Assembly (NCBI GenBank): GCA_964469935.1 | Contig: CAYXZQ010000002.1 | Coordinates: 319-64,318 of the forward strand | Direction: 5' to 3' | Source: an uncultured Methanosarcinales archaeon | GTDB taxonomy: Archaea > Nanobdellota > Nanobdellia > Woesearchaeales > DSVV01 | DNA length: 64,000 bases | Shown here: positions 28,641 through 46,936 of the stretch, one piece after another | Layout: every line of letters starts with the position of its first letter | How positions within the stretch are numbered: position 1 is the stretch's first letter | Notes under the pieces: generated by a model | What the model was told of the DNA's origin: nothing | Databases searched by the model: none | The model's input: the letters and a program-made list of their open reading frames with translations, nothing else | Position numbers and translations under genes: made by a program

Positions 28641-29279
28641 TCATTTCCTGCAGACAAATACCAGGTTCATCGACAGGAGCGCCCAATACCTGCCCCTGAC
28701 ATAGGTGCTTGCACCGCCCGGAAGGACGATTTCGCCGAAGAATTCTATCTTGCTGAAACCAGCATCTTCAAAGATCCGGCGCCACTCGGCAGGCTTCAGG
28801 GTTGAGCAGTGGGTCCTGTCCAGGAAGTTGACAAAACCTGTAAAGGCCCTTCCTATAAGCCAGGACTTGTTGGGGAATGAGCCGATGAATATCCCGCCCG
28901 ACCTGAGGGATGCATATACCTTCGATACCACGCTTCGAAAGTCCCTGATATGCTCGAGGATGTTGAAACCTGCAATGACGTCATAATGATCTGCCTTAAG
29001 CCTGACTTTAGAGATGTCCCCTTCCGACACCCTGCCCTTGAACCGCTTTTTTGCATCTTCTACAGCATATCCGGATATGTCGATGCCAGAAACCTCGAAA
29101 TGCTCGCTTGCAACGTCTAGAAACCCTCCCACTCCGCAGCCTATCTCGAAGAGCCTTCCGCCCCTGGTGTATCTGAGTATCTCGCCCAGCCTCTTTTTGT
29201 TCCTCTTCGACCCCTTCCCCTTGCCGACAATTTTGTTGTTGTAGTAATTGCGGTCGTAATATTTCCTGATTATGCTCAT
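28641..29279 (-). CDS. Class I SAM-dependent methyltransferase.
   Basis: 'LFEIGCGVGGF' (motif I) and 'DVIAGFNILEHI' (methyltransferase type 11/12 pattern). Confidence 0.75.
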   Translation of the reverse strand: MSIIRKYYDRNYYNNKIVGKGKGSKRNKKRLGEILRYTRGGRLFEIGCGVGGFLDVASEHFEVSGIDISGYAVEDAKKRFKGRVSEGDISKVRLKADHYDVIAGFNILEHIRDFRSVVSKVYASLRSGGIFIGSFPNKSWLIGRAFTGFVNFLDRTHCSTLKPAEWRRIFEDAGFSKIEFFGEIVLPGGASTYVRGRYWALLSMNLVFVCRK

Positions 29280-29303: not shown

Positions 29304-31187
29304 TTAAATAGGTTGCGTGCTTGGCAGGTTTATCCTGTATATCCTTGCAGCCTCGAGACCCTGGTAATAGAAAGACTTCTCAAGCACCAGGTACTTGTCC
29401 AGCTGGTCGGACCAGGGATGCGTTATGTTGAGCTCCGGCTTGACCAGTAGCGCGTCATACTGCCTGTACTGGTCGCCCCTCAACGCGGGGTCCAGCCATG
29501 TGTGGACCTTCTGGAAGCTGACATTGTATTTCTGAAGGGTCTTCTCGTAGCCGTCCTTGTCGATTATGAGGATAGGGTCGGACAAGCCCACAATCTGCCC
29601 GTTGCCATCGAACTGGTACACGTTGCTCAGCCACCTGAAATGCCAGAACAGGTATCTGACATTGTCCTTCTTCAGAAGCTCAACCCTCTTGCTGTCGTCG
29701 TCACCATGCAGTATCAGGGCCGCGTCCATGTACCTCGAGTCGACGTCCACAAACATGCCGAAATGTGCCCTTCGCGAGGCGAGGAGCTTCCTTCCCGTGA
29801 GGGCATTGAGCATGAACCCGTCCTCGTTGTCTGTCAGGAACACGTCATCGACATTGGTGTTCTGGTCGACCCAGTTAGTTATGTCCTGTAGATATTGGGG
29901 CAGAGGCTGCTCTGCGCTCTGGAAGAACTGGGACTTTGTCTTTGACGCAGTGTACCCAAGGGCTCCTGCCGAGAGGACTATTATGAATATGAGGATGAAT
30001 GCATGCTCGCCGTATCTCTTTATCCGGGCGGACCTTGCCGACAGGGTGTTGTAGAGTATTATCAGCCCGAAGAACGGGACCACGAGCGAGAGGACTGTGA
30101 TAGGGGTGCCTCCCACTGCAGGAGTCAGCTCGGTCTTGAAGAGCGGTTCTGTGACTAGGATATGCGCATATCCTATGACTGCGGCTATGAATAGGAACAG
30201 CATGTATCTTATCTCCTCAGACCTTTTCCTGATGAGGATCATCCCGATGAATCCCACGTCGAACAACATGACGAATATCCCCGTGAGGACATTGCTGAAA
30301 TTTGGGATGAAGAGGTATGCGATGGACGAGTAGATAGATTTGATCTGGAGGAAGAACGTGTCTGCGATCGGGTAGTTGAAATCCTGGAGCCTATTCAGGA
30401 CATGAAGGTGCAGGACGAATATCGGGACGAACCAGTAGATTAGACCTATGCAAAAGCCGATGCAGAACACAGTGAGGAAATAGGAGAGATTTCTTCCAAG
30501 GTTCTTTTTGATTCCTGCTATGTCGATTTTTTTTCTGCCGATGTACTGTATGAATGTCTTGTATACGGCATACATCGCCAGGAGGAACGAAGCCCCGATG
30601 CCGGCAGCTGTGTGGGACAGCATCACAAGGCCGTAGGAGATTCCTGCGAATATGCTGTATTTAAGCTCCTTCTTATGATAGGCGTAGAAGAGGAGCATGA
30701 CGAAGAGCATCGATGTCATGGTCCTTGCTGCATGGTAATGGAAATAGAGGGAGTTGACATAAAGGCTGTAGGCTGCAAGGGTCAGGGCAAGTGTCCTCCT
30801 TTTGAGAAATACGATTCCAAGTAGATAGGACAGCACGCCTATTATGGGTGTCCACAGGATGTTCGAGTAGAAGATGCCCTTGATGAGGCTTATGTCGAAT
30901 ATCCTTGAGAATCCGATGACGATTAGGTGGTACAGCGGCGGAACCCATGGGTATGCGCCTGCTGCCTGGGAATTCTCCCAGATGGATCCCCCGTCGTTGA
31001 TGTGGTTCATCATGCCCAGGTGATAATAGTAGTCCCCGCCGTAAAGCGGGCTCGGGAGCTGTTTCAGCTGGTCCAATATCCCTATCTGGAGGGCCAAAAA
31101 AATCAATATGACGGCGACAAGCACCTTGTCCTGCCAGTTGCCTTTCAGAAAACGCCGGAACCTCTGTCCTTTGGCACTGTCTTTCAT
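29304..31187 (-). CDS. Polytopic GT-C-like membrane protein (627 aa).
   Basis: About 12 TM helices plus a C-terminal soluble domain. Its early loop 'YGGDYYYHLGMM' resembles the STT3 EL1 'DPYxYY' loop, but no WWDYG motif was found. Confidence 0.4.
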   Translation of the reverse strand: MKDSAKGQRFRRFLKGNWQDKVLVAVILIFLALQIGILDQLKQLPSPLYGGDYYYHLGMMNHINDGGSIWENSQAAGAYPWVPPLYHLIVIGFSRIFDISLIKGIFYSNILWTPIIGVLSYLLGIVFLKRRTLALTLAAYSLYVNSLYFHYHAARTMTSMLFVMLLFYAYHKKELKYSIFAGISYGLVMLSHTAAGIGASFLLAMYAVYKTFIQYIGRKKIDIAGIKKNLGRNLSYFLTVFCIGFCIGLIYWFVPIFVLHLHVLNRLQDFNYPIADTFFLQIKSIYSSIAYLFIPNFSNVLTGIFVMLFDVGFIGMILIRKRSEEIRYMLFLFIAAVIGYAHILVTEPLFKTELTPAVGGTPITVLSLVVPFFGLIILYNTLSARSARIKRYGEHAFILIFIIVLSAGALGYTASKTKSQFFQSAEQPLPQYLQDITNWVDQNTNVDDVFLTDNEDGFMLNALTGRKLLASRRAHFGMFVDVDSRYMDAALILHGDDDSKRVELLKKDNVRYLFWHFRWLSNVYQFDGNGQIVGLSDPILIIDKDGYEKTLQKYNVSFQKVHTWLDPALRGDQYRQYDALLVKPELNITHPWSDQLDKYLVLEKSFYYQGLEAARIYRINLPSTQPI

Positions 31188-31191
31188 TTTG

Positions 31192-34100
31192 TTATTTAGC
31201 GTCGATGAGCTTGACTATCTCGTAGCCGTAGGCGGTCTGAAACGGCTTTGAAACGTCTCCTACCTGCAGGCTGAAGACCTGGTCCTCGAATGCCTTCGGC
31301 ATGACCCCCCTTCCGAACCATCCCAGGTTGCACCTGACTGTCTCGTCGCTGCATTCTGAATACTGCTGAGCCAGCTCATCGAAATTGTCAGGGGTTATCA
31401 TGCCGTATATCTTGTCTGCAAGGGCCGATGCCTGCTCATCCGTCCTGTTTGAAGTGCTTATGAGTATATGTTCCACCTTTGCAAGGGTCTTCTCCTGGAT
31501 AGGGTCCTGTGTCGTGTTGCCGGGGGAAACTGCCTGCGAAGTGTCCGTGGTTGCCTGCTCTGTCTGCGATGAGGCAGTGTCGACAGCTGGGGCCTGGCTG
31601 ACGCTTGCATTCCTTCCTGCCCAGTCGACCTTCCACGTGATAATCTTCGCTCCGGTGATGTCCCTTACATTGTTGAAGGAGTCGAAATGGGTGAGTCCCG
31701 CACCCTCGAAATAGAACAGCCTCGTGAACATGCTTCCCGCAAGGTCAGCGTCCATCAGGACCGACTGGTAGGTCCCGCCGGACTCCACGATGGCTGCACC
31801 TAGCGGCCTTCCGTCCTGGGACGTGATGTAGTTGCCTGCGTACTGCTTGACCCTGAACTGCCCGTACTTGTCAATGAATGATATTGCCCTGACATTGAGC
31901 GACGTCCCCTGTACTGACGCCTCTTCGGTCGAGAGGTCGAACTGGAGGCCGTTGCTGCACGAGACTGTGTTATCGCTCACCGTGCACGCTGTGAGATCTC
32001 CTGCATAGCTCGGCCACGGCGCGATCCACTGGTCCGGGTCCGTGGTCTTTATTTGGTTGTAGATGCTGAGGGCTGCAGTGCTGTTCAGGCCAAAATTGTC
32101 CTCAAGGTATGAGACTCCGTCTATCTGGTTCTTGTTGTACACCTTGTTGTACTGCTCGGCTCTCGTGAAATTCCATGCGCCGAAATGCGCCCATACCCCC
32201 GACTTGCCGACCATGTCTTCGCTGGTTATGAAATAGTCTTCGGGCGGGCTGCAGTGGGTGTACTGCAACACGTCCTCTGCCTGCGCGTCTGTAAGGCCTT
32301 TTGAGAGCAGGACGCTCTTTGCAGATGCCCTGTCGAGCACGATTATCTGGTATATCGTATCTATTGTCTTCAGTGAGTCGTTGTCCATGTACGGGAGCAG
32401 TGTGTCGAAGCCCGTGTTGGAGCCGCAGTCGAGGTATCTCAGTATCCCCACTGATTCAGTCTCGTTCCATGTGAGCATGAGCTTGCCCAGCCAGTGGGCT
32501 GCGGGGTTGTTCTGCCTCCCTCCGTCAAGGGTCACCCTCCTGTCTCCGATGGCTGCGAACCAATGGCCGAAGTCCCACCATGAATTGATGATGGCGTCAG
32601 GCTTGGACTGGTCCTTTATCTTGGTCAGCGAGGAATACCAGCTGTCGTCCATCGTTGGCACCTCGTTGAGGGCCGTGGTCTTTGCAGCCGATACAATGTT
32701 GATGGGAAAGAACATGAGCGCGCAGAAGATGGCGATGATTGCGCCGTAGGCGAATATCTTGTTCACCGTAAGCTCCTTTGATATCCATTCCGAGACCTCG
32801 GTGGTGACGATACCGGCTGTTATCCCGCAGGCGATAGAATATGCCGGGACCAGGAGAAGGATGAACCTGACTCCTTTTGAGCTTGCATATATCGTCGAGG
32901 CGAACCAGATGGCAAGTATCAATGAATATCTTATGTCCAGCTCTGTTCCCACGACCATTGTGTACAGGATGTATCCAGCGATAGGCAGAAATATTAGCAC
33001 TGCATAAAGCAGCTGGCTCTTGACCGCGCCCTGTATTATTATTATGAACAGGTACCAAACAGCGCTTATGGCGAGGAAATAGAGGCTGTCCTTCTTTTCG
33101 GATTTGAGATTGCCGAGAGGGAGCACAAGGCCTATGAGAGCGATGAAGTACCATATCTTGCTCCCGAGGCTGATCTGGCTGATCGTCGAGTTGAGCGTGG
33201 CAGGATTCAGCTCGGCCACTGTCGTGTACACGTTCGGCCATATCTTCTGGACTCCCACCTGCTTGAGCTGGGTGAATCCTATGGTGCCCTGGAAGAAGTT
33301 TATGAAATCCCCCCATGATTTGATGAGGGTCACGAACAACGCTGACAGGATGAAGAATGCGGCTGTTATGAGGAGCGCGTTCTTAAGCCTCTCGATCGAA
33401 AGCATTTTTTTCGGATTTTTGAAGATTGCCTTGCGGTTCATTATCCCGTGGTATGCTATGATGCCGAGGAGCATCACGATTACGAAATCAAAGATGAAGT
33501 ACCACGCGGTCCACGCGAAGCTGAACAGCCCCACGCAGAAGGCCGCAAGCCCTGCAAGTATGATGGTCTTTGTCCTGCTCCTGCTGTTGAGGGCCTCGAG
33601 AAGGAGCCATGTTATCATTAGAGGGAAGAAGACGTTGTAGGCGTCGGTGTCTGAGAACCCGCCTATGGTCCTTGAAAGCAATGCAGGGTGGATGGCTATC
33701 AGGACACCTGCGATGAACCCGCCGAAATCACCGGCTATCCTTCTCGTTATGAAAAATGCCGGGATGATTATCAGAGTCCCGAAGATGAGCGGCGTGAAGA
33801 ACACCACGTACATGAGGTCGACGTTGGGATTGAATAGTGCTGCAATCCTGTACATGACATATTGCACCAGGACATGGAAGTGCACGATTCTCTTGTCAGT
33901 GCCCTTGCCCATCGGCTGGCCTGCGAGGACCTTCGTGTCATGATAATACCCGTCAGGGCTCTGGTAGTCCCCTTCAAAGCCGTGGTCGATGACGTCCTCT
34001 GTCATCCTGTAATAATAGTACGGGTCTATGGCAAGAAGATACGTGTGGCCGTAATCATTCTGGAACCTCGACCTGAAATATTCCGAGTTCTGGCTTATGA

Positions 34101-34452
34101 CCTGGGAGATATCTACGTTCTGGCCCTGGATGTTGATCTGTCCTGTCTGGAGTATCTGGCTGAACTGGTCATTGACTATCTGGTTCTTGTTGGTGTCGGG
34201 GAGATTAGGATACTGTGTGGAGACCTGGCTCTTTATTGTCGACTTGATATTGTTGTAGATGGTGTTCTGGGCCCACTGGTCCGTTATCGGCAGGTAAACC
34301 GGCATGGCCCTCAGGTAAATGCTCAGGATGATGGGGATCAGGATCAGTATTACTGTTATGGATTTCTTCATCAGGGCCTTGTTTGAGAAAAACCCTTTCA
34401 GCTTCTTCAGATCAAGGCTCAGTTCCTCTTCCTTCTCCTTACCCTTGGACAA
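31192..34452 (-). CDS. aglB: STT3/AglB-family oligosaccharyltransferase fused to a C-terminal parvulin-type peptidyl-prolyl isomerase domain (1086 aa).
   Basis: EL1 motif 'AIDPYYYYR' and 'SWWDFGHW' (WWDYG variant). A Ser/Thr/Gln-rich linker follows. The C-terminus 'EHILIS...LGWFGRGVMPKAFEDQVFSLQVGDVSKPFQTAYGYEIVKL' aligns with PpiC/parvulin. Confidence 0.8.
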   Translation of the reverse strand: MSKGKEKEEELSLDLKKLKGFFSNKALMKKSITVILILIPIILSIYLRAMPVYLPITDQWAQNTIYNNIKSTIKSQVSTQYPNLPDTNKNQIVNDQFSQILQTGQINIQGQNVDISQVISQNSEYFRSRFQNDYGHTYLLAIDPYYYYRMTEDVIDHGFEGDYQSPDGYYHDTKVLAGQPMGKGTDKRIVHFHVLVQYVMYRIAALFNPNVDLMYVVFFTPLIFGTLIIIPAFFITRRIAGDFGGFIAGVLIAIHPALLSRTIGGFSDTDAYNVFFPLMITWLLLEALNSRSRTKTIILAGLAAFCVGLFSFAWTAWYFIFDFVIVMLLGIIAYHGIMNRKAIFKNPKKMLSIERLKNALLITAAFFILSALFVTLIKSWGDFINFFQGTIGFTQLKQVGVQKIWPNVYTTVAELNPATLNSTISQISLGSKIWYFIALIGLVLPLGNLKSEKKDSLYFLAISAVWYLFIIIIQGAVKSQLLYAVLIFLPIAGYILYTMVVGTELDIRYSLILAIWFASTIYASSKGVRFILLLVPAYSIACGITAGIVTTEVSEWISKELTVNKIFAYGAIIAIFCALMFFPINIVSAAKTTALNEVPTMDDSWYSSLTKIKDQSKPDAIINSWWDFGHWFAAIGDRRVTLDGGRQNNPAAHWLGKLMLTWNETESVGILRYLDCGSNTGFDTLLPYMDNDSLKTIDTIYQIIVLDRASAKSVLLSKGLTDAQAEDVLQYTHCSPPEDYFITSEDMVGKSGVWAHFGAWNFTRAEQYNKVYNKNQIDGVSYLEDNFGLNSTAALSIYNQIKTTDPDQWIAPWPSYAGDLTACTVSDNTVSCSNGLQFDLSTEEASVQGTSLNVRAISFIDKYGQFRVKQYAGNYITSQDGRPLGAAIVESGGTYQSVLMDADLAGSMFTRLFYFEGAGLTHFDSFNNVRDITGAKIITWKVDWAGRNASVSQAPAVDTASSQTEQATTDTSQAVSPGNTTQDPIQEKTLAKVEHILISTSNRTDEQASALADKIYGMITPDNFDELAQQYSECSDETVRCNLGWFGRGVMPKAFEDQVFSLQVGDVSKPFQTAYGYEIVKLIDAK

Positions 34453-34635
34453 ACTATCTTCCCCCGATTTCGGATTTTAAAAAATTACAGGTTGTATATA
34501 AAGATTATGATTGGAGGTGGCAGTAGGATTTTTATCACGGGCTTCGCCGCCGTTTCTTCTCTATGGATGATATGAGAAAGATTTAAATATGATTTCAAGT
34601 TTGCCTCAACCAGCAGTTATGGTAATGACAGTTTA

Positions 34636-36411
34636 TTGCTGACTGAAACGAGCAAAGGGGTGACCATCTTGGTGAAGCATAAGAAGAAGAAGCATTCTGC
34701 CGGTAGATCAGCCTCAGAGAACACTGAGGGGCATGCAAATGCAAAAGAACATGCAAATGTTCATCCGGACAAAAGCCCGCACACCCACAGTGTGCACAAA
34801 AAAGAGCCTAAAAAAGCTCCAAACCCTTGGATATGGGTCGCAGCCGCTGTAGTCCTGATTCTCGCTGTATATGCGATATACAACATTGGTTCCGGGGAGA
34901 TAAAAGAGGACAATACAGGCAACACCGTCGCAACAGGGGCAGTGAATTTTGACCTCTATGTCATGAGCCAGTGCCCCTATGGCACACAGGTTGAGGATTC
35001 ACTCGCACCAGTCCTCAAGACGCTCGGAAACAACGTCGATTTAAGCCTGAACTACATTGCAAATGACAACGGTGACGGTTCTTTCACCAGCCTCCACGGG
35101 AATAATGAAGTGCTGGGCGACATAGTCCAGCTCTGTGCGCAGAAATACAATCCGGACAAGTACATGGATATGATTATATGCCAGAACAAGGACGCGAGTT
35201 CCATTCCTGGGAACTGGGAATCCTGCGCAACGGACAACGGGCTTGACGTCGACAAGATCAAGTCCTGCTACAAGGGAGATGAAGGCAAGCAGCTGCTGAG
35301 TGCAAGCATCAAGGAATCAGAGGACATCGGTGCTACAGGCAGCCCCACTATCTACATCAATAACAACAGCTATTCCGGTGCGAGGGGGCAGAACGATTTC
35401 ATGAGGGCGATATGCAACGCATACACGGGTACGAAGCCCTCGGCATGCGATGACATACCTGCTCCTGCTGAGGTCGACGTCATTGTCATAAATGACAAGC
35501 GGTGTTCAGAATGCGAAACCGGCATGACACAGCTTCTCGCCCAGCTCAAGAGCGTGTTCCCCGGCCTTAAAGTGACATCCTACGACTACAGCCAGCCCGA
35601 GGCAAAGACCCTCATGGCGCAGACAAATGTCAAGCTTCTGCCGGCCGTGCTGTTTGACGACAGCGTCACGAAGGACGAGAATTACGCCAATGTCGAGCAG
35701 TACTTGGTGCCCGCAGGCGATTACACTTCGCTCAGGATAGGTGCTGATTTCGACCCGTCAGCAGAGATATGCGACAATGGCATCGATGACACAGGCAACG
35801 GCCTCATCGATTGCCTGGATCCTGAATGCAACGGGACCATTGTCTGCAGGCAGGAGATTAAAGACGACCTGCAACTCTTCATAATGAGCGACTGCCCGTA
35901 CGGCAAGCAGGCTGTAATCGCCTTGAAGGATGTGATCGGAAATTTCGGAAGCGCTCTGAAATACGACATCCATTACATAGCAAGCGAGACGTCAAGCGGC
36001 TTTTCGAGCCTGCACGGCACCTATGAGGCTGACGAGGATATTGTCCAACTCTGCACAAAGAAGCATTCGCCGGACGTGTGGTTCGACTATGTCTACTGCA
36101 GGAGCGAGGAAGGCATCAAGGGGAATGACTGGCACAACTGCGCAGAGCAGACAGGCGTTGACATAGACGCAGTCGAGGCATGTATCAACGGCACCGAAGG
36201 TCCCTCTCTGCTGAGTCAGGACATAAAGATAGCTCAGGGGCTCTCGATCAGCGCTTCGCCCACATGGCTTGCGAACAACAAGTACATATTCAGCGGAATA
36301 GCTGCAGAGGCAGTCAAGTCGAGCTTCTGCAAGTACAACCCTGACCTCACAGGCTGCAACAACACGCTGTCATCGGCTTCAGGGACAGTTGCTTCAGGCG
36401 CGTGTGGCTAG
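34636..36411 (+). CDS. Membrane-anchored extracytoplasmic protein with a tandem-duplicated Cys-rich domain. Possibly a thiol-oxidoreductase-like fold.
   Basis: A His/Lys-rich N-terminus is followed by one TM helix. Two ~240-aa repeats each carry 'MS[QD]CPYG[TK]Q', 'SLHG...IVQLC' and 'W..C....G.D.D....C' motifs. The linker 'CDNGIDDTGNGLIDCLDPEC' looks like a Ca-binding DxDxDG motif. Confidence 0.5.
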   Translation: MLTETSKGVTILVKHKKKKHSAGRSASENTEGHANAKEHANVHPDKSPHTHSVHKKEPKKAPNPWIWVAAAVVLILAVYAIYNIGSGEIKEDNTGNTVATGAVNFDLYVMSQCPYGTQVEDSLAPVLKTLGNNVDLSLNYIANDNGDGSFTSLHGNNEVLGDIVQLCAQKYNPDKYMDMIICQNKDASSIPGNWESCATDNGLDVDKIKSCYKGDEGKQLLSASIKESEDIGATGSPTIYINNNSYSGARGQNDFMRAICNAYTGTKPSACDDIPAPAEVDVIVINDKRCSECETGMTQLLAQLKSVFPGLKVTSYDYSQPEAKTLMAQTNVKLLPAVLFDDSVTKDENYANVEQYLVPAGDYTSLRIGADFDPSAEICDNGIDDTGNGLIDCLDPECNGTIVCRQEIKDDLQLFIMSDCPYGKQAVIALKDVIGNFGSALKYDIHYIASETSSGFSSLHGTYEADEDIVQLCTKKHSPDVWFDYVYCRSEEGIKGNDWHNCAEQTGVDIDAVEACINGTEGPSLLSQDIKIAQGLSISASPTWLANNKYIFSGIAAEAVKSSFCKYNPDLTGCNNTLSSASGTVASGACG

Positions 36412-36485: not shown

Positions 36486-37472
36486 TTATTCTCTCCAGCT
36501 GACCTCGACCTCGTCAGTCCTCTCGTAAGGCCTTATCGCCAGGTCTTTGTCTGATTTCCCTTTCATGCATTTGTGCTTCAGGAGTCCCAGCCATGCAATC
36601 ATCGCGCCATTGTCGACAAGGAACTCATTTTTTGGGACAAGGCATTTCGCACCCCTGTCTTTGCACATTAGCTTAGCCATCTCCTGGAGGCGGATGTTGC
36701 ATGCCACACCTCCGCCCAGGAGGAGCTCCTTTTTGCCCGTATGCGCCATGGCCCTCTCGGAAACCTCGATAAGCATGGCAAAGACGGTCTCCTGGGCAGA
36801 ATAAGCCAGGTCTTCCTTCCTGAACCTCCCTGAACTTATCTTCTGTTTGAGGTTTGTCAGAAGCCCGCCGAACGAGGTATCCATGCCCTTGACAACGTAC
36901 GGCAGCTCGACGTACCTTTTCCCTTTGAGCCCGAGCTCGTATATCTTCGGCCCGCCGGGAAACCCGAGGCCGAGCTCCCTGGCAAATGAGTCAAGGAAAT
37001 TGCCGATCCCGATGTCCAGGGTCTCGCCGAATATCCTGTACCTCCTCCCTTCATATGCGATGACCTGGGTGTTTGCCCCTGAGACATAGAGAAGGACCGG
37101 GTCTTTTGCAGGGAAAAGCATGTTGCCTATCTCAAGATGGGCGATGCAGTGGTTGACCCCTACTATGGGCTTTTTGTGTATCGCATGGATCGACCTTGCT
37201 GCCATGGCGCCAATGCGGAGGGCATGTCCAAGCCCGGGCCCCTGGGAGAAAGATACCAGGTCGATGTCTGAGATTTTCATTCCTGCATCGGAAAGCGCAT
37301 CCTTTATGACGATATTGAATACATCCACATGGTGCTCTGAAACCCTGTTCGGTATCATGCCGCCTTTCTTGGTGGTATAGCTGTCCGTGACATTGGCAAG
37401 GACTTTCCCTTCGTCATCCACGATGCCTGCACCGAATGTGTGGGCTGTGGACTCGATCCCGAGGCAAATCAT
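36486..37472 (-). CDS. kae1: tRNA N6-adenosine threonylcarbamoyltransferase, archaeal Kae1 type.
   Basis: 'MICLGIESTAHTFGAGIV' is the archaeal Kae1 N-terminus with two His. 'SFSQGPGLGHALRIGA' is present. The start is taken at MICLG. The 64-aa upstream extension is rejected. Confidence 0.8.
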   Translation of the reverse strand: MICLGIESTAHTFGAGIVDDEGKVLANVTDSYTTKKGGMIPNRVSEHHVDVFNIVIKDALSDAGMKISDIDLVSFSQGPGLGHALRIGAMAARSIHAIHKKPIVGVNHCIAHLEIGNMLFPAKDPVLLYVSGANTQVIAYEGRRYRIFGETLDIGIGNFLDSFARELGLGFPGGPKIYELGLKGKRYVELPYVVKGMDTSFGGLLTNLKQKISSGRFRKEDLAYSAQETVFAMLIEVSERAMAHTGKKELLLGGGVACNIRLQEMAKLMCKDRGAKCLVPKNEFLVDNGAMIAWLGLLKHKCMKGKSDKDLAIRPYERTDEVEVSWRE

Positions 37473-37556
37473 TGTCGACTGGAAAAAACCGGAATTAAAA
37501 ACATTTTCGATGCACCATCCACAACCTTTATTAACTGTACAAGGATTACTGGACTT

Positions 37557-39473
37557 ATGGCAGACCCCGAGCTTGAGAACCTCAAAAAACAGATACTCGA
37601 ATATAACCCGAAGGCCGACATTGCGCTTGTCGAGAAGGCGTACAAGTACGCGAAGATAGCCCACGAGGGCCAGGTGAGGGAGTCAGGCGAGCCTTATTTC
37701 AACCATCCCATCGGGATTGCTAGGATACTCATAGGGCTCAAGGTTCAGTCGACGACGATATGCGGCGCGCTTCTCCATGACGTCGTCGAGGAATCGAAGG
37801 TCAGCCTCAAGAAGGTGAAGGACGAATTCGGCCCCGAGATAGCCTCTCTCGTTGAGGGCGTCACGAAGATAGACAAGGTCCATTTCGAGAGCAAGCAGGA
37901 CTACACAGCAGAGAATCTCAGGAAGGTGCTGCTCGCGACTGCAAAGGACATAAGGATAATGCTCATAAAGCTTGCCGACAGGCTGCACAACATGCGGACC
38001 CTTAAATCCCTGAGGGAGGACAAGCAGAAGAGGATTGCAGAGGAGACCCTGAACATATATGCGCCCATAGCCCATAAGCTTGGCGTCTGGCACATAAAAG
38101 GAGAGCTTGAGGACCTCTCGCTCCGGTACCTTGACCCCGAGGCGTACCAGATGCTCAGGGACAGGATAAACGAGAAGCGCGAAGAGCGCGAAAAGAAGAC
38201 AAAGGAGTTCATAAGGACCATAAAGAAGAAGCTCAGGGCCCATGACATCGAGGCAGAGGTCAACGGCAGGGCCAAGTACTTCTACAGCATATACAAGAAG
38301 ATGAAGAAGAAGAACGTGGACTTCAGCGAGATATACGACCTGATTGCCATAAGGATAATAACAAAGAGCATCCCTGACTGCTATGCCGCCCTGGGCATAC
38401 TCCACGACACCTGGAAGCCCATTCCCAAGAAATTCAAGGACTACATAGCCACCCCCAAGGCGAACGGCTACCAGAGCCTGCACACAGCGCTTGTCGGGAG
38501 CCACGGCAAGATACTCGAGGTGCAGATAAGGACAGAGGAGATGCACCAGATCGCAGAGGATGGAATCGCGGCTCACTGGAGGTACAAGGGCACAGAGAGG
38601 GACAAGCAGTTCGACAGGAAGATATCATGGATAAAGCAGGTGCTCGACTGGAGGCAGTCGGCAAAGGATGCAGAGGATTTCATGGAGACCCTCAAGATTG
38701 ACCTCTTCGAGAAGGAGATAATAGTATTCACGCCCAAGGGCGACCCGATATCCCTGCCGGAGCACTCGACTCCCGTGGATTTCGCATATGAGATTCATAC
38801 GAACATCGGCAACCACTGCTCAAAGGCGCTGGTGAACGAGAAGCTGGTCACGCTTGACACAGAGCTCATGCCAGGCGATGTCATCGAGATAGTTACGATG
38901 AAGAATGCAAAGCCATCGAGGCAGTGGCTCAAGTTCGTCAAGACCAGCAAGGCCAAGGGCAAGATAAGGGCCATACTGAACATCGAGAAGGAGCATGACC
39001 CGAAGACCAGGAAGGAGGAGGAGCTCCCTGAAAATCGGGCGAAGATGATAGATATCATCGGCAAGGACGTGCCGATAAAGATATCCAAATGCTGCGATCC
39101 CAGGCCGTATGATTATATCGAGGGATTTTATACAAAAGACGGGAAGATAACTGTCCACAAGAAAGGCTGTCCCAATGTCCATTCCCTTGACCAGAACAAG
39201 AAGGCTGTCGTTCACTGGAAAAAGGAATCAGGGGACAGGTTCAAGGAATTCAAGATCATTGCTCAGGATAGGGTGGGGATGATAGCTGAAATACTCAACT
39301 TCCTCGTCGCCTTAAAGCTCAATGTGGAGAAGCTCAACACCAGCACGACAAAGCATGGCAGGTTCATGCTGAACCTGGGAGTCTCTTTGGATAAGGAAGA
39401 GACAGTTGCCGAACTCATAGCAAAGCTCAAGGAGATAAAGGGCGTCTTCGATGTCATGGAGTTCAAGGGCTAG
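37557..39473 (+). CDS. Full-length RelA/SpoT homolog with HD hydrolase, (p)ppGpp synthetase, TGS and ACT domains.
   Basis: HD domain: 'HEGQVRESGEPYFNHPIGIA...LLHDVVE'. Synthetase: 'FYSIYKKM...DLIAIRII...DCYAALGILHDTWKPIPKKFKDYIATPKANGYQSLHT...EVQIRTEEMH...AAHWRYK'. TGS: 'IIVFTPKGDPISLPEHSTPVDFAYEIHT'. There is a C-terminal ACT-like 'IIAQDRVGMIAEI'. Start MADPELENL. Confidence 0.8.
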   Translation: MADPELENLKKQILEYNPKADIALVEKAYKYAKIAHEGQVRESGEPYFNHPIGIARILIGLKVQSTTICGALLHDVVEESKVSLKKVKDEFGPEIASLVEGVTKIDKVHFESKQDYTAENLRKVLLATAKDIRIMLIKLADRLHNMRTLKSLREDKQKRIAEETLNIYAPIAHKLGVWHIKGELEDLSLRYLDPEAYQMLRDRINEKREEREKKTKEFIRTIKKKLRAHDIEAEVNGRAKYFYSIYKKMKKKNVDFSEIYDLIAIRIITKSIPDCYAALGILHDTWKPIPKKFKDYIATPKANGYQSLHTALVGSHGKILEVQIRTEEMHQIAEDGIAAHWRYKGTERDKQFDRKISWIKQVLDWRQSAKDAEDFMETLKIDLFEKEIIVFTPKGDPISLPEHSTPVDFAYEIHTNIGNHCSKALVNEKLVTLDTELMPGDVIEIVTMKNAKPSRQWLKFVKTSKAKGKIRAILNIEKEHDPKTRKEEELPENRAKMIDIIGKDVPIKISKCCDPRPYDYIEGFYTKDGKITVHKKGCPNVHSLDQNKKAVVHWKKESGDRFKEFKIIAQDRVGMIAEILNFLVALKLNVEKLNTSTTKHGRFMLNLGVSLDKEETVAELIAKLKEIKGVFDVMEFKG

Positions 39474-40694: not shown

Positions 40695-42005
40695 ATGAAG
40701 TATGTGAAACTGATAATCGTGATGGCACTGGTATTCACTTTGACAGCAGTGAGCCTGGCAAGCGCTTTGCCGGTTACTATTGACAAGGTCAAGATCGACG
40801 GCGATACAATACTGCCGACCAGCGCTGATTTCACCAGGTCTCTTGACAGGGACAATTCTTTCGACATCAAGGTCGAGGTGACGGCCCAGCAGGATGTGAA
40901 GGATGCCCAGATAGAGGTCTATCTCAGGGGCTACGACCATCCGGACCTGATCCAGGACATATCGGATGTATTCAATATGAAGGCCAACAGGACATATGTC
41001 AAGACCTTCACGCTGACATTCCCATACAAGCTGGACAAGGACCAGTACAAGCTGAGGGTAAGGGTCGAGAACCGCGACGGCGACTCTACTGAGCAGAATT
41101 ACGAGCTCGGCATAGAATCCGAGAGGCATGACATGATAATCAAGGACGTCCTGTTCTCACCATCCGATTCTGTCGAGGCAGGCAGGTCTCTTCTGACATC
41201 GATAAGGCTTGAGAACACTGGCATGACTGACCCAGAAGAGGGTGTGAAAGTCATGATAAAAATCCCGTCTCTGGGCATCTCAGCAGCCGACTACATCGAC
41301 AAGATAGATGAGGATGAGTCGACGACCTCTGAAGAGCTCTATCTCAGGATTCCCGAGTGCACAAAACCAGGGACCTATGACGCTGTCATAACTGCGACAT
41401 ACCATGATGGGGACAAGACCGCTTCAGTGGATAAGCAGGTGAAGATTACAGACGGCGATCTCTGCACTTCGGGCCAGCAGCCCACGACTGAGCCTGCAAC
41501 GCCCAAGACCATAATCACGGTCGGGCCGACAGCCCAGGATGTAACCCAGGGCCAGGGCGGAGTCATATACCCGCTTACGATATCCAATGCAGGGACAGCA
41601 GCAAAGACCTATGTGATAACCGCTGAGGGCTATGCTGACTGGGCTGACGTGAGCATGAACCCGGCAAACATCGTCGTGCTTCAGCCGGGAGAGGCAAAAG
41701 TGCTATATGTCTACCTCTCCGCGCATCAGGATGCTTCAGTAGGCCAGCATATGTTCATGATAAGTGTCGCTTCAGGCACAGAGACCCTCAAGCAGTTCTC
41801 GCTGACAGCAAATGTTGTACAGGGACAGCAGCAGACTACGACGACCACGACAGATCTCGGCGGCATCAAGAAGGTGCTTGAGATAGGTCTCGTGGTGCTT
41901 GTTGTGCTTCTGGTCATACTGGGACTGATAATCGGTTTCAGCAGGCTCAGGGGAAGCGACGAGGACATTGAGGACGACGAAGGCAAAAGTGAGACATATT
42001 ATTGA
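40695..42005 (+). CDS. Secreted surface protein with a signal peptide, CARDB/Ig-like repeats, a Thr-rich stalk and a C-terminal TM anchor.
   Basis: N-terminal 'MKYVKLIIVMALVFTLTAVSLASA'. Thr-run 'QQQTTTTTTD'. C-terminal hydrophobic 'VLEIGLVVLVVLLVILGLIIGF' followed by an acidic tail. Confidence 0.55.
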   Translation: MKYVKLIIVMALVFTLTAVSLASALPVTIDKVKIDGDTILPTSADFTRSLDRDNSFDIKVEVTAQQDVKDAQIEVYLRGYDHPDLIQDISDVFNMKANRTYVKTFTLTFPYKLDKDQYKLRVRVENRDGDSTEQNYELGIESERHDMIIKDVLFSPSDSVEAGRSLLTSIRLENTGMTDPEEGVKVMIKIPSLGISAADYIDKIDEDESTTSEELYLRIPECTKPGTYDAVITATYHDGDKTASVDKQVKITDGDLCTSGQQPTTEPATPKTIITVGPTAQDVTQGQGGVIYPLTISNAGTAAKTYVITAEGYADWADVSMNPANIVVLQPGEAKVLYVYLSAHQDASVGQHMFMISVASGTETLKQFSLTANVVQGQQQTTTTTTDLGGIKKVLEIGLVVLVVLLVILGLIIGFSRLRGSDEDIEDDEGKSETYY

Positions 42006-44218: not shown

Positions 44219-44277
44219 AAAGCTTAAAGGGAAAAATTAATAAGGAGACAGCCAGTTCTGGATTTTTAGCCGTTTTT

Positions 44278-44427
44278 GGGGGCGTAGTTTAACCTGGCTA
44301 GAATAACTGGCTCCAGTGCTCTGGAGCGATGAGGGGAAGCGATTTCCCGATGACTTTAGGTCTGGTATGGCTCTTTTTTAAGGGCGAGAGATACCAGTTG
44401 ATCTGGGTTCAAATCCCAGCGTCCCCA
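44278..44427 (+). tRNA. tRNA-Trp (anticodon CCA) interrupted by a ~76-nt intron at the canonical 37/38 position (about 44317-44392).
   Basis: Acceptor GGGGGCG pairs with CGUCCCC (one G-U pair). U8 is present. D-arm GUUU/AACCUGGCUA/GAAU. Anticodon stem ACUGG/CCAGU. The anticodon loop C-U-C-C-A-G|intron|A is the canonical tRNA-Trp loop CUCCAGA. The T-arm is CUGGG-UUCAAAU-CCCAG and the discriminator is A. Confidence 0.6.
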
Positions 44428-44510
44428 TTTCACTTCGTTCAATGGGTCCCCGGGATTTGAAATACTCAAAAATCAAAGATTTTTGGCACCGCTCGAGCAA
44501 GCTCTCGTGG

Positions 44511-44526
44511 AATCCCAGCGTCCCCA
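44511..44526 (+). repeat. Exact 16-nt direct repeat of the tRNA-Trp 3' end ('aatcccagcgtcccca'), 84 nt downstream of the gene. Between the two copies lies an inverted tRNA-3'-like fragment at 44444-44461. Possible att-site remnant.
   Basis: 44412-44427 and 44511-44526 are identical. 44444-44461 'gggtccccgggatttgaa' is the reverse complement of a T-loop/acceptor-like 'ttcaaatcccggggaccc'. Confidence 0.5.
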
Positions 44527-44576
44527 CTCATTTCATTCTATCTATAAAATGCATATCCAATAATTTTCAAATAATT

Positions 44577-46594: not shown

Positions 46595-46936
46595 TCAGCT
46601 GATTCCAACCAAATCCCCTGTTTTCGATTTGGAACCTGATATTACGCCCTTTCTGGCTTCGATTACGTATTTTGCCTTGTTTTTCGACGTGTAGAAAGTA
46701 AACGGCAGGAAATTCTCCTTTAAGTCGACTATCTTCTTATCCCTGTCCAGGAAGATGACATCGATGGGAAAGAACACGAAGAACATGTGAAGGGATATTC
46801 TCCTCTCCTTCTCGAATATGAACAGGAGGCTCTTTTTGGGCGAGAACATGAGCCCCCTTGCCTTCTCGGGAACGCTCCTGCATTCGGTGAATTCCCCTGC
46901 GATGAGCTTTCCGCTTGTCAGATTCATTATCGCCAT
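46595..46936 (-). CDS. DUF192-family small protein.
   Basis: 113 aa. 'GLMF...LLFIF......ISLHM.FV.FPIDVIFLDRDKKIV' matches the COG1430/DUF192 pattern. Confidence 0.5.
   Translation of the reverse strand: MAIMNLTSGKLIAGEFTECRSVPEKARGLMFSPKKSLLFIFEKERRISLHMFFVFFPIDVIFLDRDKKIVDLKENFLPFTFYTSKNKAKYVIEARKGVISGSKSKTGDLVGIS

What the first reader, a model, noticed from the sequence alone, without database searches (positions are those of the whole stretch)
31192..34452. Oligosaccharyltransferase (AglB/STT3) with a C-terminally fused parvulin-type prolyl isomerase
Seen in sequence: a single uninterrupted 1086-aa ORF. It has the STT3 hallmarks (EL1 'DPYYYYR' and 'WWDFG'). After the extracytoplasmic C-terminal domain comes a Ser/Thr/Gln/Ala-rich linker and then a domain aligning residue-by-residue with PpiC/parvulin ('GWFGRGVMPKAFEDQVFSLQVGDVSKPFQTAYGYEIVKL'). 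Established knowledge: OST acts on flexible N-x-S/T sequons and is blocked by Pro at +1. A covalently tethered PPIase at the OST active-site side of the membrane would be a built-in folding or sequon-presentation helper. I am not aware of a characterised OST-PPIase fusion.
Basis: partly seen in the sequence, partly recalled or inferred. Interest (0 to 1): 0.8.

Follow-up and report, generated by a model that had tools for sequence, protein, structure and literature searches.

The report
Archaeal glycosylation enzyme with tethered foldase
A DPANN archaeon (Woesearchaeota) encodes its protein N-glycosylating enzyme AglB as one chain with a prolyl-isomerase-type folding domain on a flexible outside tether, and related archaea carry a different isomerase or a disulfide-forming domain at the same spot, so glycosylation and folding of exported proteins look physically coupled, as in the eukaryotic ER.

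Summary
Window 31192-34452 (-) is one uninterrupted 1086-aa ORF. It has a 13-TM AglB/STT3 core with every catalytic motif intact, a disordered hypervariable 44-aa linker, and a parvulin domain (aa 989-1086).

It is not an assembly artefact. Thirty diverged cluster representatives from independent assemblies share the architecture. The parvulin domain is as constrained as the catalytic domain (dN 0.12 / dS 2.0), whereas the linker evolves almost neutrally.

Orthologous Woesearchaeal AglBs carry other tails at the same C-terminal position: an FKBP-type isomerase, a VKOR-type thioredoxin domain, thioredoxin plus parvulin, sequon-rich acidic tails, or nothing.

No hydrophobic segment follows TM13, so the tail lies outside the cell.

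There is a caveat for this protein. In its subclade the second active-site His is a conserved Glu, and the Cys at the Pin1-C113 position is paired with a second, clade-specific Cys. PPIase catalysis is therefore unproven.

Best reading: a PrsA-like extracellular folding helper anchored on the OST. I found no paper describing it.

Closest analogues are the eukaryotic OST partners MagT1/TUSC3 (thioredoxin fold) and FKBP11.

Verdict: real, a new variant of known kinds, moderately high interest.

The parts
31192..34452 (-). Whole gene: AglB-linker-parvulin, 1086 aa, TTG start, stop codon at 31192-31194
   Evidence: (P0001 identical)
34360..34452 (-). Cytoplasmic N-terminal tail (aa 1-31) holding one copy of the family's repeated motif (LSLDLKKLK, aa 11-19)
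32701..34359 (-). Membrane domain, aa 32-584. About 13 TM helices with a long first external loop.
   Evidence: hydropathy; helices in the AF2 model; Foldseek to PglB/AglB/STT3
34006..34032 (-). EL1 acidic motif AIDPYYYYR (D143)
   Evidence: D143 is at least 90% conserved in 71 sequences
33637..33654 (-). SDTDAY, the second acidic (DxD) motif (D268, D270)
33205..33225 (-). EL5 motif TTVAELN (the TIXE-type motif). T410-E414 are invariant.
31621..32700 (-). Extracellular C-terminal globular domain of AglB, aa 585-944. It ends at ...ITWKVDW.
   Evidence: The in-window paralog ends one residue after this point.
32566..32580 (-). WWDFG catalytic motif (aa 625-629), invariant
31489..31620 (-). Flexible linker, aa 945-988. 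Rich in Ser, Thr, Gln, Ala and Pro, with sequons at N948 and N979.
   Evidence: pLDDT below 50 for aa 955-984; 8-27% identity to orthologs; dN 0.90 / dS 1.20
31195..31488 (-). Parvulin (PpiC-type) domain, aa 989-1086
   Evidence: Pfam E 1e-19; PDB hits Ess1, NmPin, PrsA at E about 1e-12; pLDDT about 95; Foldseek PrsA 6xd8 TM 0.85; dN 0.12 / dS 1.99
31330..31353 (-). Cys1034 (at the Pin1 C113 position) and Cys1041, a clade-specific C-x6-C pair and a possible disulfide
   Evidence: The second Cys is present in 17 of 30 fused domains and 2 of 344 other parvulin domains.
31219..31221 (-). Glu1078 in place of the second active-site His (Pin1 H157)
   Evidence: Glu is present in 10 of 30 fused domains (all in the query subclade) and 4 of 344 others.
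34453..34635 (.). 183-bp divergent intergenic region shared with the thiol-oxidoreductase gene. It has A/T-rich TATA-like stretches on both sides.
   Evidence: read by eye only
34636..36411 (+). Divergently transcribed, membrane-anchored protein with two GILT/DsbA-like thioredoxin-fold modules
   Evidence: Pfam. The position is conserved in six genomes, with 57% identity.
29304..31187 (-). Downstream gene, starting 4 nt after the AglB stop. It encodes an uncharacterised GT-C-fold glycosyltransferase (627 aa) and is probably co-transcribed.
28641..29279 (-). SAM-dependent methyltransferase, third gene of the same-strand run
   Evidence: the same gene order appears

Best explanation
The gene encodes a functional single-subunit oligosaccharyltransferase (AglB) of a Woesearchaeote. 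Its extracellular C-terminal domain is extended by a flexible, probably glycosylated tether of about 44 residues that ends in a parvulin-fold domain.

**Shown:**
- the fusion is real
- it is conserved
- it is under purifying selection
- it has no membrane segment after TM13

**Inferred from the known AglB/PglB/STT3 topology:** the parvulin sits outside the cell, on the same face as the OST active site.

**Inferred mechanism:** unfolded proteins leave the Sec channel and are glycosylated by the AglB core. The tethered parvulin then captures proline-containing or hydrophobic stretches of the same chains. It speeds or guards their folding in the way the membrane-anchored parvulin PrsA does in Gram-positive bacteria. 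AglB serves as both the anchor and the point of spatial coupling.

This is one case of a wider habit in this lineage. Orthologous AglBs carry an FKBP isomerase, a VKOR-type thioredoxin domain, or thioredoxin plus parvulin at the same place.

Whether this particular domain still turns over prolyl bonds or acts mainly by binding is open, because of His-to-Glu and the Cys pair. I put catalysis at about 50%.
For: **Architecture and fold.**

**Catalytic motifs of AglB are intact and invariant.** D143, D268/D270, TTVAE410-414 and WWDFG625-629.

**Topology.** There are about 13 TM helices. Maximum hydropathy after residue 944 is 0.28, so there is no further membrane segment.

**Recurrence.**
- 20 of the 120 best AglB relatives carry a Rotamase domain.
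- 11 of 13 single-domain best hits of the parvulin domain, among 1.8 billion representatives, are AglB-fused.
- 11 of 80 species genomes carry the fusion.

**Selection.**
- The parvulin domain is 79% identical to the closest ortholog, against 73-82% for the core and 27% for the linker.
- dN/dS is about 0.06 for parvulin and about 0.75 for the linker.

**Interchangeable folding modules at the same site.**
- FKBP_C tails, E 3e-19 and 7e-13.
- VKOR-type thioredoxin tails, E 6e-14 to PDB 3kp8.
- Their scattered distribution on the AglB tree.

**Proline pocket and most network residues are kept.** L1043, M1051, F1055, T1073, H995.

**An unfused relative exists.** A TM-anchored SurA_N+parvulin protein (P0257, 44% identical) lies next to SRP54 on an archaeal contig.

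**Conserved neighbourhood.** In six genomes the gene sits next to a secreted 2xGILT/DsbA oxidoreductase and a GT-C glycosyltransferase.

**Literature.**
- PrsA and PpiD are membrane-tethered extracytoplasmic parvulins.
- The archaeal parvulin NmPin sits on the outer face of the membrane under the S-layer (PMC4922055).
Against: - There is no experiment on any member, and the organisms are uncultivated.
- In the query subclade the second active-site His is Glu. This residue appears in only about 1% of other parvulin domains.
- The Cys at the catalytic position has a clade-specific partner Cys seven residues on. If the two form a disulfide outside the cell, the thiol is not free.
- I could not obtain model coordinates. 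Neither the Cys-Cys distance nor any docking of the parvulin on the OST could be tested.
- In genomes whose AglB has no tail, no free parvulin, thioredoxin or FKBP gene lies within 10 kb of AglB. There is therefore no gene-neighbourhood support for the coupling beyond the fusions themselves.
- The human precedent cuts both ways. FKBP11 sits beside OST-A, but the authors argue it is an adaptor and not a nascent-chain isomerase (PMC12804085).
Confidence: 0.6

Rival explanations
1. The domain is a binding-only holdase. It is catalytically inert and grips unfolded exported chains next to the OST. This delays their folding so that more sequons are glycosylated. The logic is the same as for the thioredoxin subunits Ost3/6-MagT1/TUSC3 in eukaryotic OST, or for the inactive parvulin domains of SurA (P1) and PpiD.
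For: - His-to-Glu at the Pin1 H157 position is fixed in all 10 members of the subclade, and the Cys pair is unusual.
- The hydrophobic pocket is kept, which fits binding.
- MagT1 oxidoreductase activity is needed for glycosylation of Cys-proximal sites (PMC4137057).
- FKBP11 at OST-A is interpreted as non-catalytic.
Against: - Twenty of 30 fused domains, including close relatives with the same Cys pair, keep the canonical His.
- Every Pin1 H157 substitution tested (A, N, S, L, F; Glu was not among them) supported yeast viability, and the two histidines are considered structural rather than catalytic (PMC6983177). Glu therefore need not kill activity.
Confidence: 0.2
2. AglB is only an anchor. 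The parvulin is a general extracellular foldase that uses AglB as a convenient membrane anchor in a small genome. There is no functional link to glycosylation.
For: - A free TM-anchored parvulin exists in a relative (P0257), so the foldase function does not need AglB.
- No neighbourhood link appears in unfused genomes.
Against: - A single TM helix is a far cheaper anchor.
- Three unrelated folding catalysts (parvulin, FKBP, thioredoxin) were all recruited to the same terminus of the same enzyme, in several branches.
- Among the recognisable globular tail domains, nothing but folding catalysts was found.
Confidence: 0.12
3. The domain regulates the enzyme in cis. It acts on AglB itself, for example on a proline in the mobile EL5 loop or the C-terminal domain, or it plugs the peptide-binding site as an autoinhibitor.
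For: - The tether is long enough to reach back to the active site (44 residues).
- In human OST-A the active site can be occluded by a client segment.
Against: - Most orthologs work without any tail (28 of the 120 have fewer than 25 residues after the core).
- The thioredoxin and FKBP alternatives do not fit a proline-switch model.
- No conserved docking surface could be tested.
Confidence: 0.05
4. The fusion is an assembly or annotation artefact: two adjacent genes joined by a frameshift or a chimeric contig.
For: None found. Raw reads were not available to me.
Against: - The same in-frame architecture occurs in 30 diverged cluster representatives (38-76% identity) from NCBI, ENA, JGI and Logan assemblies, including a closed 1.84-Mb chromosome.
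- Codon-level purifying selection runs across the domain.
- GC3 is similar in all parts of the gene (0.66-0.76).
Confidence: 0.01

Closest known systems
Archaeal AglB (e.g. Archaeoglobus fulgidus AglB-L, PDB 3WAK/5GMY/7E9S), bacterial PglB and eukaryotic STT3
   Same: It has 13 TM helices plus an external C-terminal domain. The acidic EL1 and DxD motifs, the EL5 TIXE-type motif and WWD[FY]G are all present. Foldseek E-values are 5e-20 to 1e-12.
   Different: It carries a 142-residue C-terminal extension with a folding-catalyst domain. No solved or described OST that I found has a covalently attached PPIase.
PrsA (Bacillus, Staphylococcus, Listeria), a membrane-anchored extracytoplasmic parvulin foldase
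   Same: The parvulin fold matches (6xd8 TM 0.85, 35% identity). It sits on the outer face of the cytoplasmic membrane and presumably acts on freshly exported proteins.
   Different: PrsA is lipid-anchored, dimeric, and wraps its parvulin in an N/C chaperone domain. Here the anchor is the OST itself and there is no N/C domain. PrsA has Asp where this protein has Cys, and PrsA keeps both histidines.
NmPin and CsPinA, single-domain archaeal parvulins
   Same: These are archaeal parvulins located outside the membrane under the S-layer (PMC4922055). Sequence similarity is E 3.5e-12.
   Different: They are free 10-kDa proteins held on the membrane by a lysine patch. That paper states that all archaeal parvulins known then were single-domain. 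This one is part of a 1086-aa enzyme.
Eukaryotic OST-B with MagT1/TUSC3 (yeast Ost3/Ost6)
   Same: A folding catalyst is held at the OST so that glycosylation and folding are coordinated (PMC4137057). The thioredoxin-tailed sister AglBs are the closest parallel.
   Different: In eukaryotes these are separate subunits with a different thioredoxin family. In this window the attached module is a PPIase, not an oxidoreductase.
Human FKBP11 at the Sec61/OST-A translocon (PDB 9N9J, PMC12804085)
   Same: A PPIase-fold protein is positioned beside the STT3 catalytic subunit on the lumenal/external side. Two sister AglBs carry an FKBP domain.
   Different: FKBP11 is non-covalent, binds the ribosome, and is interpreted as an adaptor for CCDC134 rather than an isomerase. 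It is unrelated in descent to the tail studied here.
VKOR-thioredoxin fusion of Synechococcus (PDB 3KP8/3KP9)
   Same: This is the source family of the thioredoxin-like tails on sister AglBs (E 6e-14). It is another case of a folding catalyst fused to a membrane enzyme.
   Different: It is not present in the window protein, and its partner enzyme is VKOR, not an OST.

Membership tests
AglB/STT3/PglB oligosaccharyltransferase (GT66, Pfam PF02516) | Significant match to the STT3 family model | tested here: met
   PF02516 at E 4e-42, 145.6 bits against a cut-off of 24.5. The archaeo_STT3 subfamily model TIGR04154 scores only 53.7 against a cut-off of 450, so the protein is not a member of that particular subfamily.
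AglB/STT3/PglB oligosaccharyltransferase (GT66, Pfam PF02516) | 13-TM GT-C fold plus an external C-terminal domain | tested here: met
   Hydropathy. AF2 pLDDT 89.7. Foldseek top hits are PglB 5ogl at E 5e-20, AglB 7e9s at E 4e-14 and STT3A 8pn9 at E 3e-14.
AglB/STT3/PglB oligosaccharyltransferase (GT66, Pfam PF02516) | Catalytic motifs: EL1 Asp, DxD, EL5 TIXE-type Glu, WWD[YF]G | tested here: met
   D143, D268/D270, T410-E414 and W625-G629 are invariant or at least 90% conserved in 71 sequences.
AglB/STT3/PglB oligosaccharyltransferase (GT66, Pfam PF02516) | Transfers a lipid-linked glycan to Asn in N-x-S/T | not testable with these tools
   This needs an enzyme assay. Context fits: the gene lies in a 26-kb sugar-nucleotide and glycosyltransferase island.
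Parvulin (PpiC-type PPIase, Pfam PF00639/PF13616) | Family model match and parvulin fold (beta-alpha-alpha-beta-alpha-beta-beta) | tested here: met
   71 bits against a cut-off of 21.7. The secondary-structure order is E990-999, H1005-1018, H1024-1031, E1042-1047, H1053-1060, E1071-1073, E1076-1085. Foldseek gives PrsA TM 0.85 and Pin1 TM 0.74.
Parvulin (PpiC-type PPIase, Pfam PF00639/PF13616) | Hydrophobic proline pocket (Pin1 L122, M130, F134) | tested here: met
   L1043, M1051 and F1055.
Parvulin (PpiC-type PPIase, Pfam PF00639/PF13616) | Active-site hydrogen-bond network Cys/Asp-His-His-Thr (Pin1 C113-H59-H157-T152) | tested here: inconclusive
   C1034, H995 and T1073 are present. The second His is Glu1078, conserved in all 10 members of the subclade and rare elsewhere (4 of 344). 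Every Pin1 H157 substitution tested (A, N, S, L, F; Glu was not among them) supported yeast viability (PMC6983177).
Parvulin (PpiC-type PPIase, Pfam PF00639/PF13616) | Measurable prolyl cis/trans isomerase activity | not testable with these tools
   This needs a protease-coupled or NMR exchange assay.
Pin1-type (phospho-specific) parvulin | Long basic beta1-alpha1 loop (K63, R68, R69) and, usually, a WW domain | tested here: not met
   The loop is short (STSNRTDEQ, one Arg) and there is no WW domain. The protein is not a Pin1-type enzyme despite the Cys.
PrsA-type foldase | Parvulin inserted in an N/C chaperone domain (SurA_N-like) with a lipoprotein or TM anchor of its own | tested here: not met
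   No SurA_N or PrsA N/C domain appears in Pfam or NCBIfam. The PrsA models match only the parvulin part, at 42-44 bits against cut-offs of 343-360. It may work like PrsA but is not a member. The free relative P0257 does have SurA_N.

The most novel reading that the evidence does not exclude
Woesearchaeal AglB is a single-chain, modular counterpart of the eukaryotic OST holo-complex. It has an STT3-type catalytic core whose external C-terminus is a docking site for swappable folding catalysts: parvulin, FKBP or a VKOR-type thioredoxin. These act on the same nascent exported chains, so that N-glycosylation, prolyl isomerisation and disulfide formation are coordinated at one membrane machine.

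This would show that OST-foldase coupling arose in archaea independently of the Ost3/6 and FKBP11 partners of eukaryotes. It would also offer a minimal system for studying how glycosylation and folding compete.
Probability: 0.35. Interest if true: 0.75.

Novelty: new variant of a known kind. Interest (0 to 1): 0.6.

Why it matters
Glycosylation by OST needs an unfolded acceptor, so folding and glycosylation compete. How cells manage that race is an open question. In eukaryotes it is handled by accessory subunits (the MagT1/TUSC3 thioredoxins) and by translocon partners such as FKBP11, which was seen beside OST-A only in 2025. Prokaryotic OSTs are regarded as single-subunit enzymes without such helpers.

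A natural, recurrent, covalent OST-foldase chimera would provide three things:
- a minimal and genetically simple system for testing whether a tethered PPIase or oxidoreductase changes site occupancy or folding yield
- the first multi-domain archaeal parvulin, with a new way of anchoring one outside the cell
- a design template for engineered glycosylation hosts, such as PglB or AglB with a fused foldase

The finding rests on sequence and predicted structure only.

Tried and rejected
1. **Artefact hypothesis.** Rejected on recurrence, selection and composition.

2. **Gene-neighbourhood support.** I looked for free parvulin, thioredoxin or FKBP genes next to tail-less AglBs. HMM scans of all ORFs in 80 loci found none.

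3. **Protein search with the parvulin tail.** The search for homologous proteins with the 112-aa tail returned nothing, because the word index found only 2 candidates. The exhaustive representative search had already answered the question.

4. **The 627-aa downstream protein.**
   - I tested whether it is an ortholog of the PMT/PMT_2 proteins that occupy the same slot in three related contigs. BLASTP shows no similarity.
   - The PDB profile search was only marginal (AftA, E 0.19).
   - The GT-C assignment came from AF2 plus Foldseek.

5. **Pin1-type phospho-specific reading.** The Cys suggested it, but the basic loop and WW domain are absent, so I rejected it.

6. **Literature.** Searches combining AglB, STT3 or oligosaccharyltransferase with parvulin, peptidyl-prolyl, rotamase, PpiC, DPANN or Woesearchaeota found no description of the fusion. 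The 2021 survey of archaeal PPIases does not mention DPANN or fused forms. Subscription-only papers were not searchable, for example the 2020 AglB survey by Nikolayev et al., which I recall from memory.

7. **afdb50 fold search.** The library was unavailable.

8. **Source annotation.** The listing of cluster members gave no names or accessions.

9. **Model coordinates.** These are not returned by the tool. The C1034-C1041 distance and any docking of the tail on the core could not be measured.


Full report
**1. Observation**

One search shows one uninterrupted ORF at 31192-34452 on the minus strand (1086 aa, TTG start).
- The same 1086-aa product is already in the public protein collection, from an NCBI contig of 64,495 bp (P0001).
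- The closest ortholog also starts at TTG.
- Pfam finds STT3 (aa 126-565, E 4e-42), a weak STT3/PglB core match (aa 622-672) and PpiC-type rotamase models (aa 987-1085, E 1e-19).
- NCBIfam gives the same two halves.

**2. Anatomy**

Hydropathy gives about 13 membrane helices between aa 32 and 584, with a 165-residue first external loop. Nothing hydrophobic follows. The maximum 19-residue hydropathy after aa 944 is 0.28.

In a 71-sequence alignment the catalytic signatures are invariant or nearly so: D143 (AIDPYYYY), D268/D270 (SDTDAY), T410-E414 (TTVAE, EL5) and W625-G629 (WWDFG).

The AlphaFold2 model built on that alignment has mean pLDDT 89.7 and pTM 0.81.
- Residues 955-984 fall below pLDDT 50.
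- Residues 990-1086 have pLDDT of about 95, with the parvulin order of strands and helices.

Foldseek against the PDB returns two groups of hits:
- For the body: PglB (E 5e-20), human STT3A/B, and A. fulgidus AglB.
- For the tail: PrsA (6xd8, TM 0.85, 35% identity), Pin1 and Ess1.

A second STT3 paralog lies in the same window (46927-49383, 818 aa, WWDKG). It aligns with the protein from aa 54 to aa 944 and then stops. This delimits the 142-residue tail as an add-on.

By the established N-in/C-out topology of AglB, PglB and STT3, the tail is outside the cell. That step is inference.

**3. The fusion is real**

The fusion recurs widely.
- Twenty of the 120 best AglB relatives carry STT3 plus Rotamase, down to 38% identity, from NCBI, ENA, JGI and Logan assemblies.
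- An exhaustive search of 1.8 billion representatives with the parvulin domain alone was also informative. Eleven of the 13 best single-domain hits are AglB fusions or C-terminal fragments of them.
- HMM scans of 80 species-level genome loci find the fusion in 11, including a closed 1.84-Mb Woesearchaeota chromosome, OY970338.1.

Selection acts on the domain and not on the linker.
- Against that 75%-identical ortholog, the parvulin domain is 79% identical, the core 73-82% and the linker 27%.
- Nei-Gojobori estimates are dN 0.12 / dS 1.99 for parvulin, 0.116 / 2.0 for the C-terminal globular domain, 0.167 / 1.44 for the membrane part and 0.90 / 1.20 for the linker. dS is close to saturation, so the ratios are rough.
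- GC3 is similar along the gene.

An assembly chimera or frameshift is therefore excluded for practical purposes.

**4. The wider pattern**

I sorted the sequence that follows the core-end motif (W-K/N-V-D-W) in the 120 relatives and found several tail classes:
- Parvulin only.
- A CxxC domain plus parvulin (P0004, 6, 8, 10, 14).
- The CxxC domain only (P0015, 17, 24, 26).
- FKBP (P0090, P0094).
- Acidic tails of 40-110 residues, rich in N-x-S/T.
- No tail (28 proteins with fewer than 25 residues after the core).

The CxxC domain is the thioredoxin-like domain known from the Synechococcus VKOR fusion (3kp8, E 6e-14). The FKBP tails match FKBP_C at E 3e-19 and 7e-13.

On a rough neighbour-joining tree of the cores, the parvulin-bearing query clade (P0001-P0014) is nested among thioredoxin-only and tail-less proteins. 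In a second clade, parvulin, FKBP and tail-less proteins are interleaved. This points to repeated gain, loss or exchange, but NJ on 120 sequences is not decisive.

Every recognisable globular tail is a protein-folding catalyst. This is the main comparative argument for function.

**5. The parvulin active site**

I aligned the domain with Pin1, Par10 and Par14 (sequences from memory), with NmPin and PrsA, and with 31 relatives.

| Position (Pin1 numbering) | Residue here |
|---|---|
| H59 | H995 |
| C113 | C1034 |
| T152 | T1073 |
| Pocket L122 / M130 / F134 | L1043 / M1051 / F1055 |
| H157 | E1078 |

Across 374 parvulin domains aligned to one HMM:
- Glu at the H157 position is found in 10 of 30 fused domains, all in the query subclade, and in 4 of 344 others.
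- A second Cys seven residues after the first (C1041) is found in 17 of 30 fused domains and 2 of 344 others.

The Glu is therefore a conserved, lineage-specific change and not decay.

Published work on Pin1 shows that every H157 substitution tested (A, N, S, L, F; Glu was not among them) supports yeast viability. The two histidines are regarded as structural, whereas C113 matters for catalysis (PMC6983177). The title of PMC8716364 reports that this cysteine is redox-sensitive in PIN1At.

An extracellular parvulin with Cys rather than Asp at this position is unusual. A C1034-C1041 disulfide is possible, but I could not test it. I put catalytic competence of this particular domain at about one half. 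The fused domains of the second clade are canonical.

The short β1-α1 loop and the absence of a WW domain exclude a Pin1-type phospho-specific enzyme.

**6. Context**

The AglB stop is followed after 4 nt by a 627-aa gene.
- It belongs to a 33-member family seen only in Woesearchaeota-type contigs, with no Pfam match.
- Its AlphaFold model (pLDDT 91.2) is a GT-C glycosyltransferase. Top structural hits are STT3/AglB/PglB at E 3e-10 and AftA at TM 0.58-0.60.
- A GGD motif in its first external loop is invariant.
- A methyltransferase follows.

Upstream and divergent lies a membrane-anchored protein with two GILT/DsbA-like modules.

This arrangement recurs in six genomes: oxidoreductase, then divergently AglB-parvulin, then a large GT-C protein, then a methyltransferase (57% identity for the oxidoreductase). 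In three of the six, the GT-C slot holds a PMT/PMT_2-family protein that is not similar by BLASTP.

The first 26 kb of the window is a sugar island. It contains two NeuB genes, a CMP-sugar transferase, PIG-L, DegT, a 4,6-dehydratase, UDP-GlcNAc 2-epimerase, GDP-mannose dehydratase and GT1/GT4 enzymes.

A free relative of the parvulin, P0257 (44% identical), is a TM-anchored SurA_N+parvulin protein. It is encoded next to SRP54 on an archaeal contig.

**7. Mechanism**

Shown: the architecture, the conservation, a disordered tether, and no further membrane segment.

Inferred:
- The domain lies outside, within roughly 10-15 nm of the OST site. This assumes 44 residues at up to about 3.5 Å each.
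- It meets the same unfolded chains that AglB glycosylates as they leave the Sec channel.
- It assists their folding by prolyl isomerisation and/or binding, as PrsA does.

Rivals:
- A binding-only holdase that raises occupancy (Ost3/6 logic).
- AglB used purely as an anchor.
- Cis-regulation of AglB.
- An artefact.

Isomerisation does not remove the reason why N-P-S/T fails.

**8. Comparison with known systems**

- The protein is a member of GT66 AglB/STT3 and of the parvulin family. One active-site feature is inconclusive.
- It is not a PrsA-family member because it has no N/C domain. It is not Pin1-type.
- Functionally, the nearest known cases are eukaryotic. MagT1/TUSC3 thioredoxins are subunits of the STT3B complex (PMC4137057).
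- FKBP11 was seen next to OST-A in the 2025 translocon structure. Its authors favour an adaptor role there (PMC12804085; PDB 9n9j appeared among my own Foldseek hits).
- The NmPin paper states that all archaeal parvulins known at that time were single-domain. It places NmPin outside the membrane under the S-layer (PMC4922055).
- A 2021 survey of 196 archaeal genomes lists 30 parvulins. It mentions neither DPANN nor fusions.
- I found no paper describing an OST-PPIase fusion. The library lacks most subscription journals.

**9. Verdict**

The feature is real and widespread within one archaeal order, and as far as I could search it is undescribed. I class it as a new variant of known kinds. The interesting point is less this single gene than the pattern of interchangeable folding catalysts on the OST C-terminus. 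Function is inferred and not shown.

| Claim | Confidence |
|---|---|
| Architecture | about 0.97 |
| Outside location | about 0.9 |
| Folding-helper role | about 0.6 |
| PPIase turnover by this particular domain | about 0.5 |

Noticed in passing
window 29304-31187 (-): A 627-aa multi-TM protein starts 4 nt after the AglB stop. It has no Pfam match and belongs to a 33-member family seen only in Woesearchaeota-type contigs. Its AF2 model (pLDDT 91) is a GT-C glycosyltransferase, closest to STT3/AglB/PglB and AftA. It has an invariant P-x-P-x-x-G-G-D motif in the first external loop and no WWDxG. It looks like an undescribed GT-C family that sits within about 7 kb of AglB in 14 of 80 loci, directly downstream in some.
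   Followed up: yes
P0004, P0006, P0008, P0010, P0014, P0015, P0017, P0024, P0026, P0090, P0094 (relatives); L004, L081, L082, L084, L085: Orthologous AglBs carry other folding catalysts at the same C-terminal position. These are a VKOR-type thioredoxin-like CxxC domain (alone or before the parvulin) or an FKBP domain.
   Followed up: yes
window 34636-36411 (+): A membrane-anchored 591-aa protein has two GILT/DsbA-like thioredoxin-fold modules and an acidic double-disulfide repeat. Its motifs read CPYG rather than CxxC. It is divergently transcribed from AglB, and this position is conserved in six genomes.
   Followed up: partly
window 46927-49383 (-): A second STT3-family paralog (818 aa, 24% identical to the fused one). 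It has WWDKG instead of WWDFG, SDTNT instead of SDTDA, and no C-terminal tail. With the 627-aa protein, the 64-kb window holds three GT-C proteins.
   Followed up: partly
window about 34396-34422 (-), aa 11-19; P0025, P0027 and others: The cytoplasmic N-terminus carries a short motif, (D/E)(D/E)-I-S-I-D-F-S-K-I-K-x-F-F. It is repeated 1-5 times in 96 of 120 AglB relatives, often in long Lys/Glu-rich extensions. The query has one copy. Its function is unknown. A docking motif for a cytoplasmic partner is a guess.
   Followed up: partly
P0027, P0029, P0037, P0043, P0044, P0047 and others (relatives): Many tail-less relatives are not truly bare. They end in acidic low-complexity tails of 40-110 residues, packed with N-x-S/T sequons (up to 11 in 110 residues). 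The enzyme would presumably glycosylate these itself.
   Followed up: no
window 1-26333: A large sugar-nucleotide and glycosyltransferase island. It contains two NeuB-type nonulosonic acid synthases, a CMP-sugar cytidylyltransferase, a PIG-L deacetylase, a DegT aminotransferase, a Polysacc_synt_2 dehydratase, UDP-GlcNAc 2-epimerase, GDP-mannose 4,6-dehydratase, GT1/GT4 enzymes and a UbiA prenyltransferase. It probably makes the N-glycan.
   Followed up: partly
window 44278-44427 (+): Rfam calls a tRNA spanning 150 nt that ARAGORN missed. This suggests an archaeal tRNA gene with a long intron.
   Followed up: no
window 37440-39473 (+): A long RelA/SpoT-type ((p)ppGpp synthetase/hydrolase) homologue in a DPANN archaeon. 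The orthologs next to AglB in L084 and L085 carry HD_4, RelA_SpoT, TGS and ACT domains. Such proteins are unusual in archaea.
   Followed up: no
L087 5001-6098 (P0257): A free, TM-anchored SurA_N+parvulin (PrsA-like) protein, 44% identical to the fused domain. It is encoded divergently from SRP54 on an archaeal contig (GCA_042571645.1). It is a candidate unfused counterpart of the tail.
   Followed up: partly
window aa 1002-1004 (NRT), nt about 31441-31449 (-): An N-R-[S/T] sequon sits in the β1-α1 loop of the parvulin domain, the loop that covers the active site in Pin1. A sequon (mostly N-R-S/T) is present at this position in about half of the 32 aligned domains (30 AglB-fused plus P0235 and P0257). 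The domain may itself be N-glycosylated.
   Followed up: no
window 40695-46508: Several large ORFs have no Pfam match or only Ig-like ones: 436 aa with FixG_C/NPCBM_assoc, and 738 aa and 643 aa with none. A similar FixG_C/NPCBM_assoc protein and a similar FAD-binding reductase also lie beside AglB in L086. They may be surface proteins and therefore candidate substrates.
   Followed up: no
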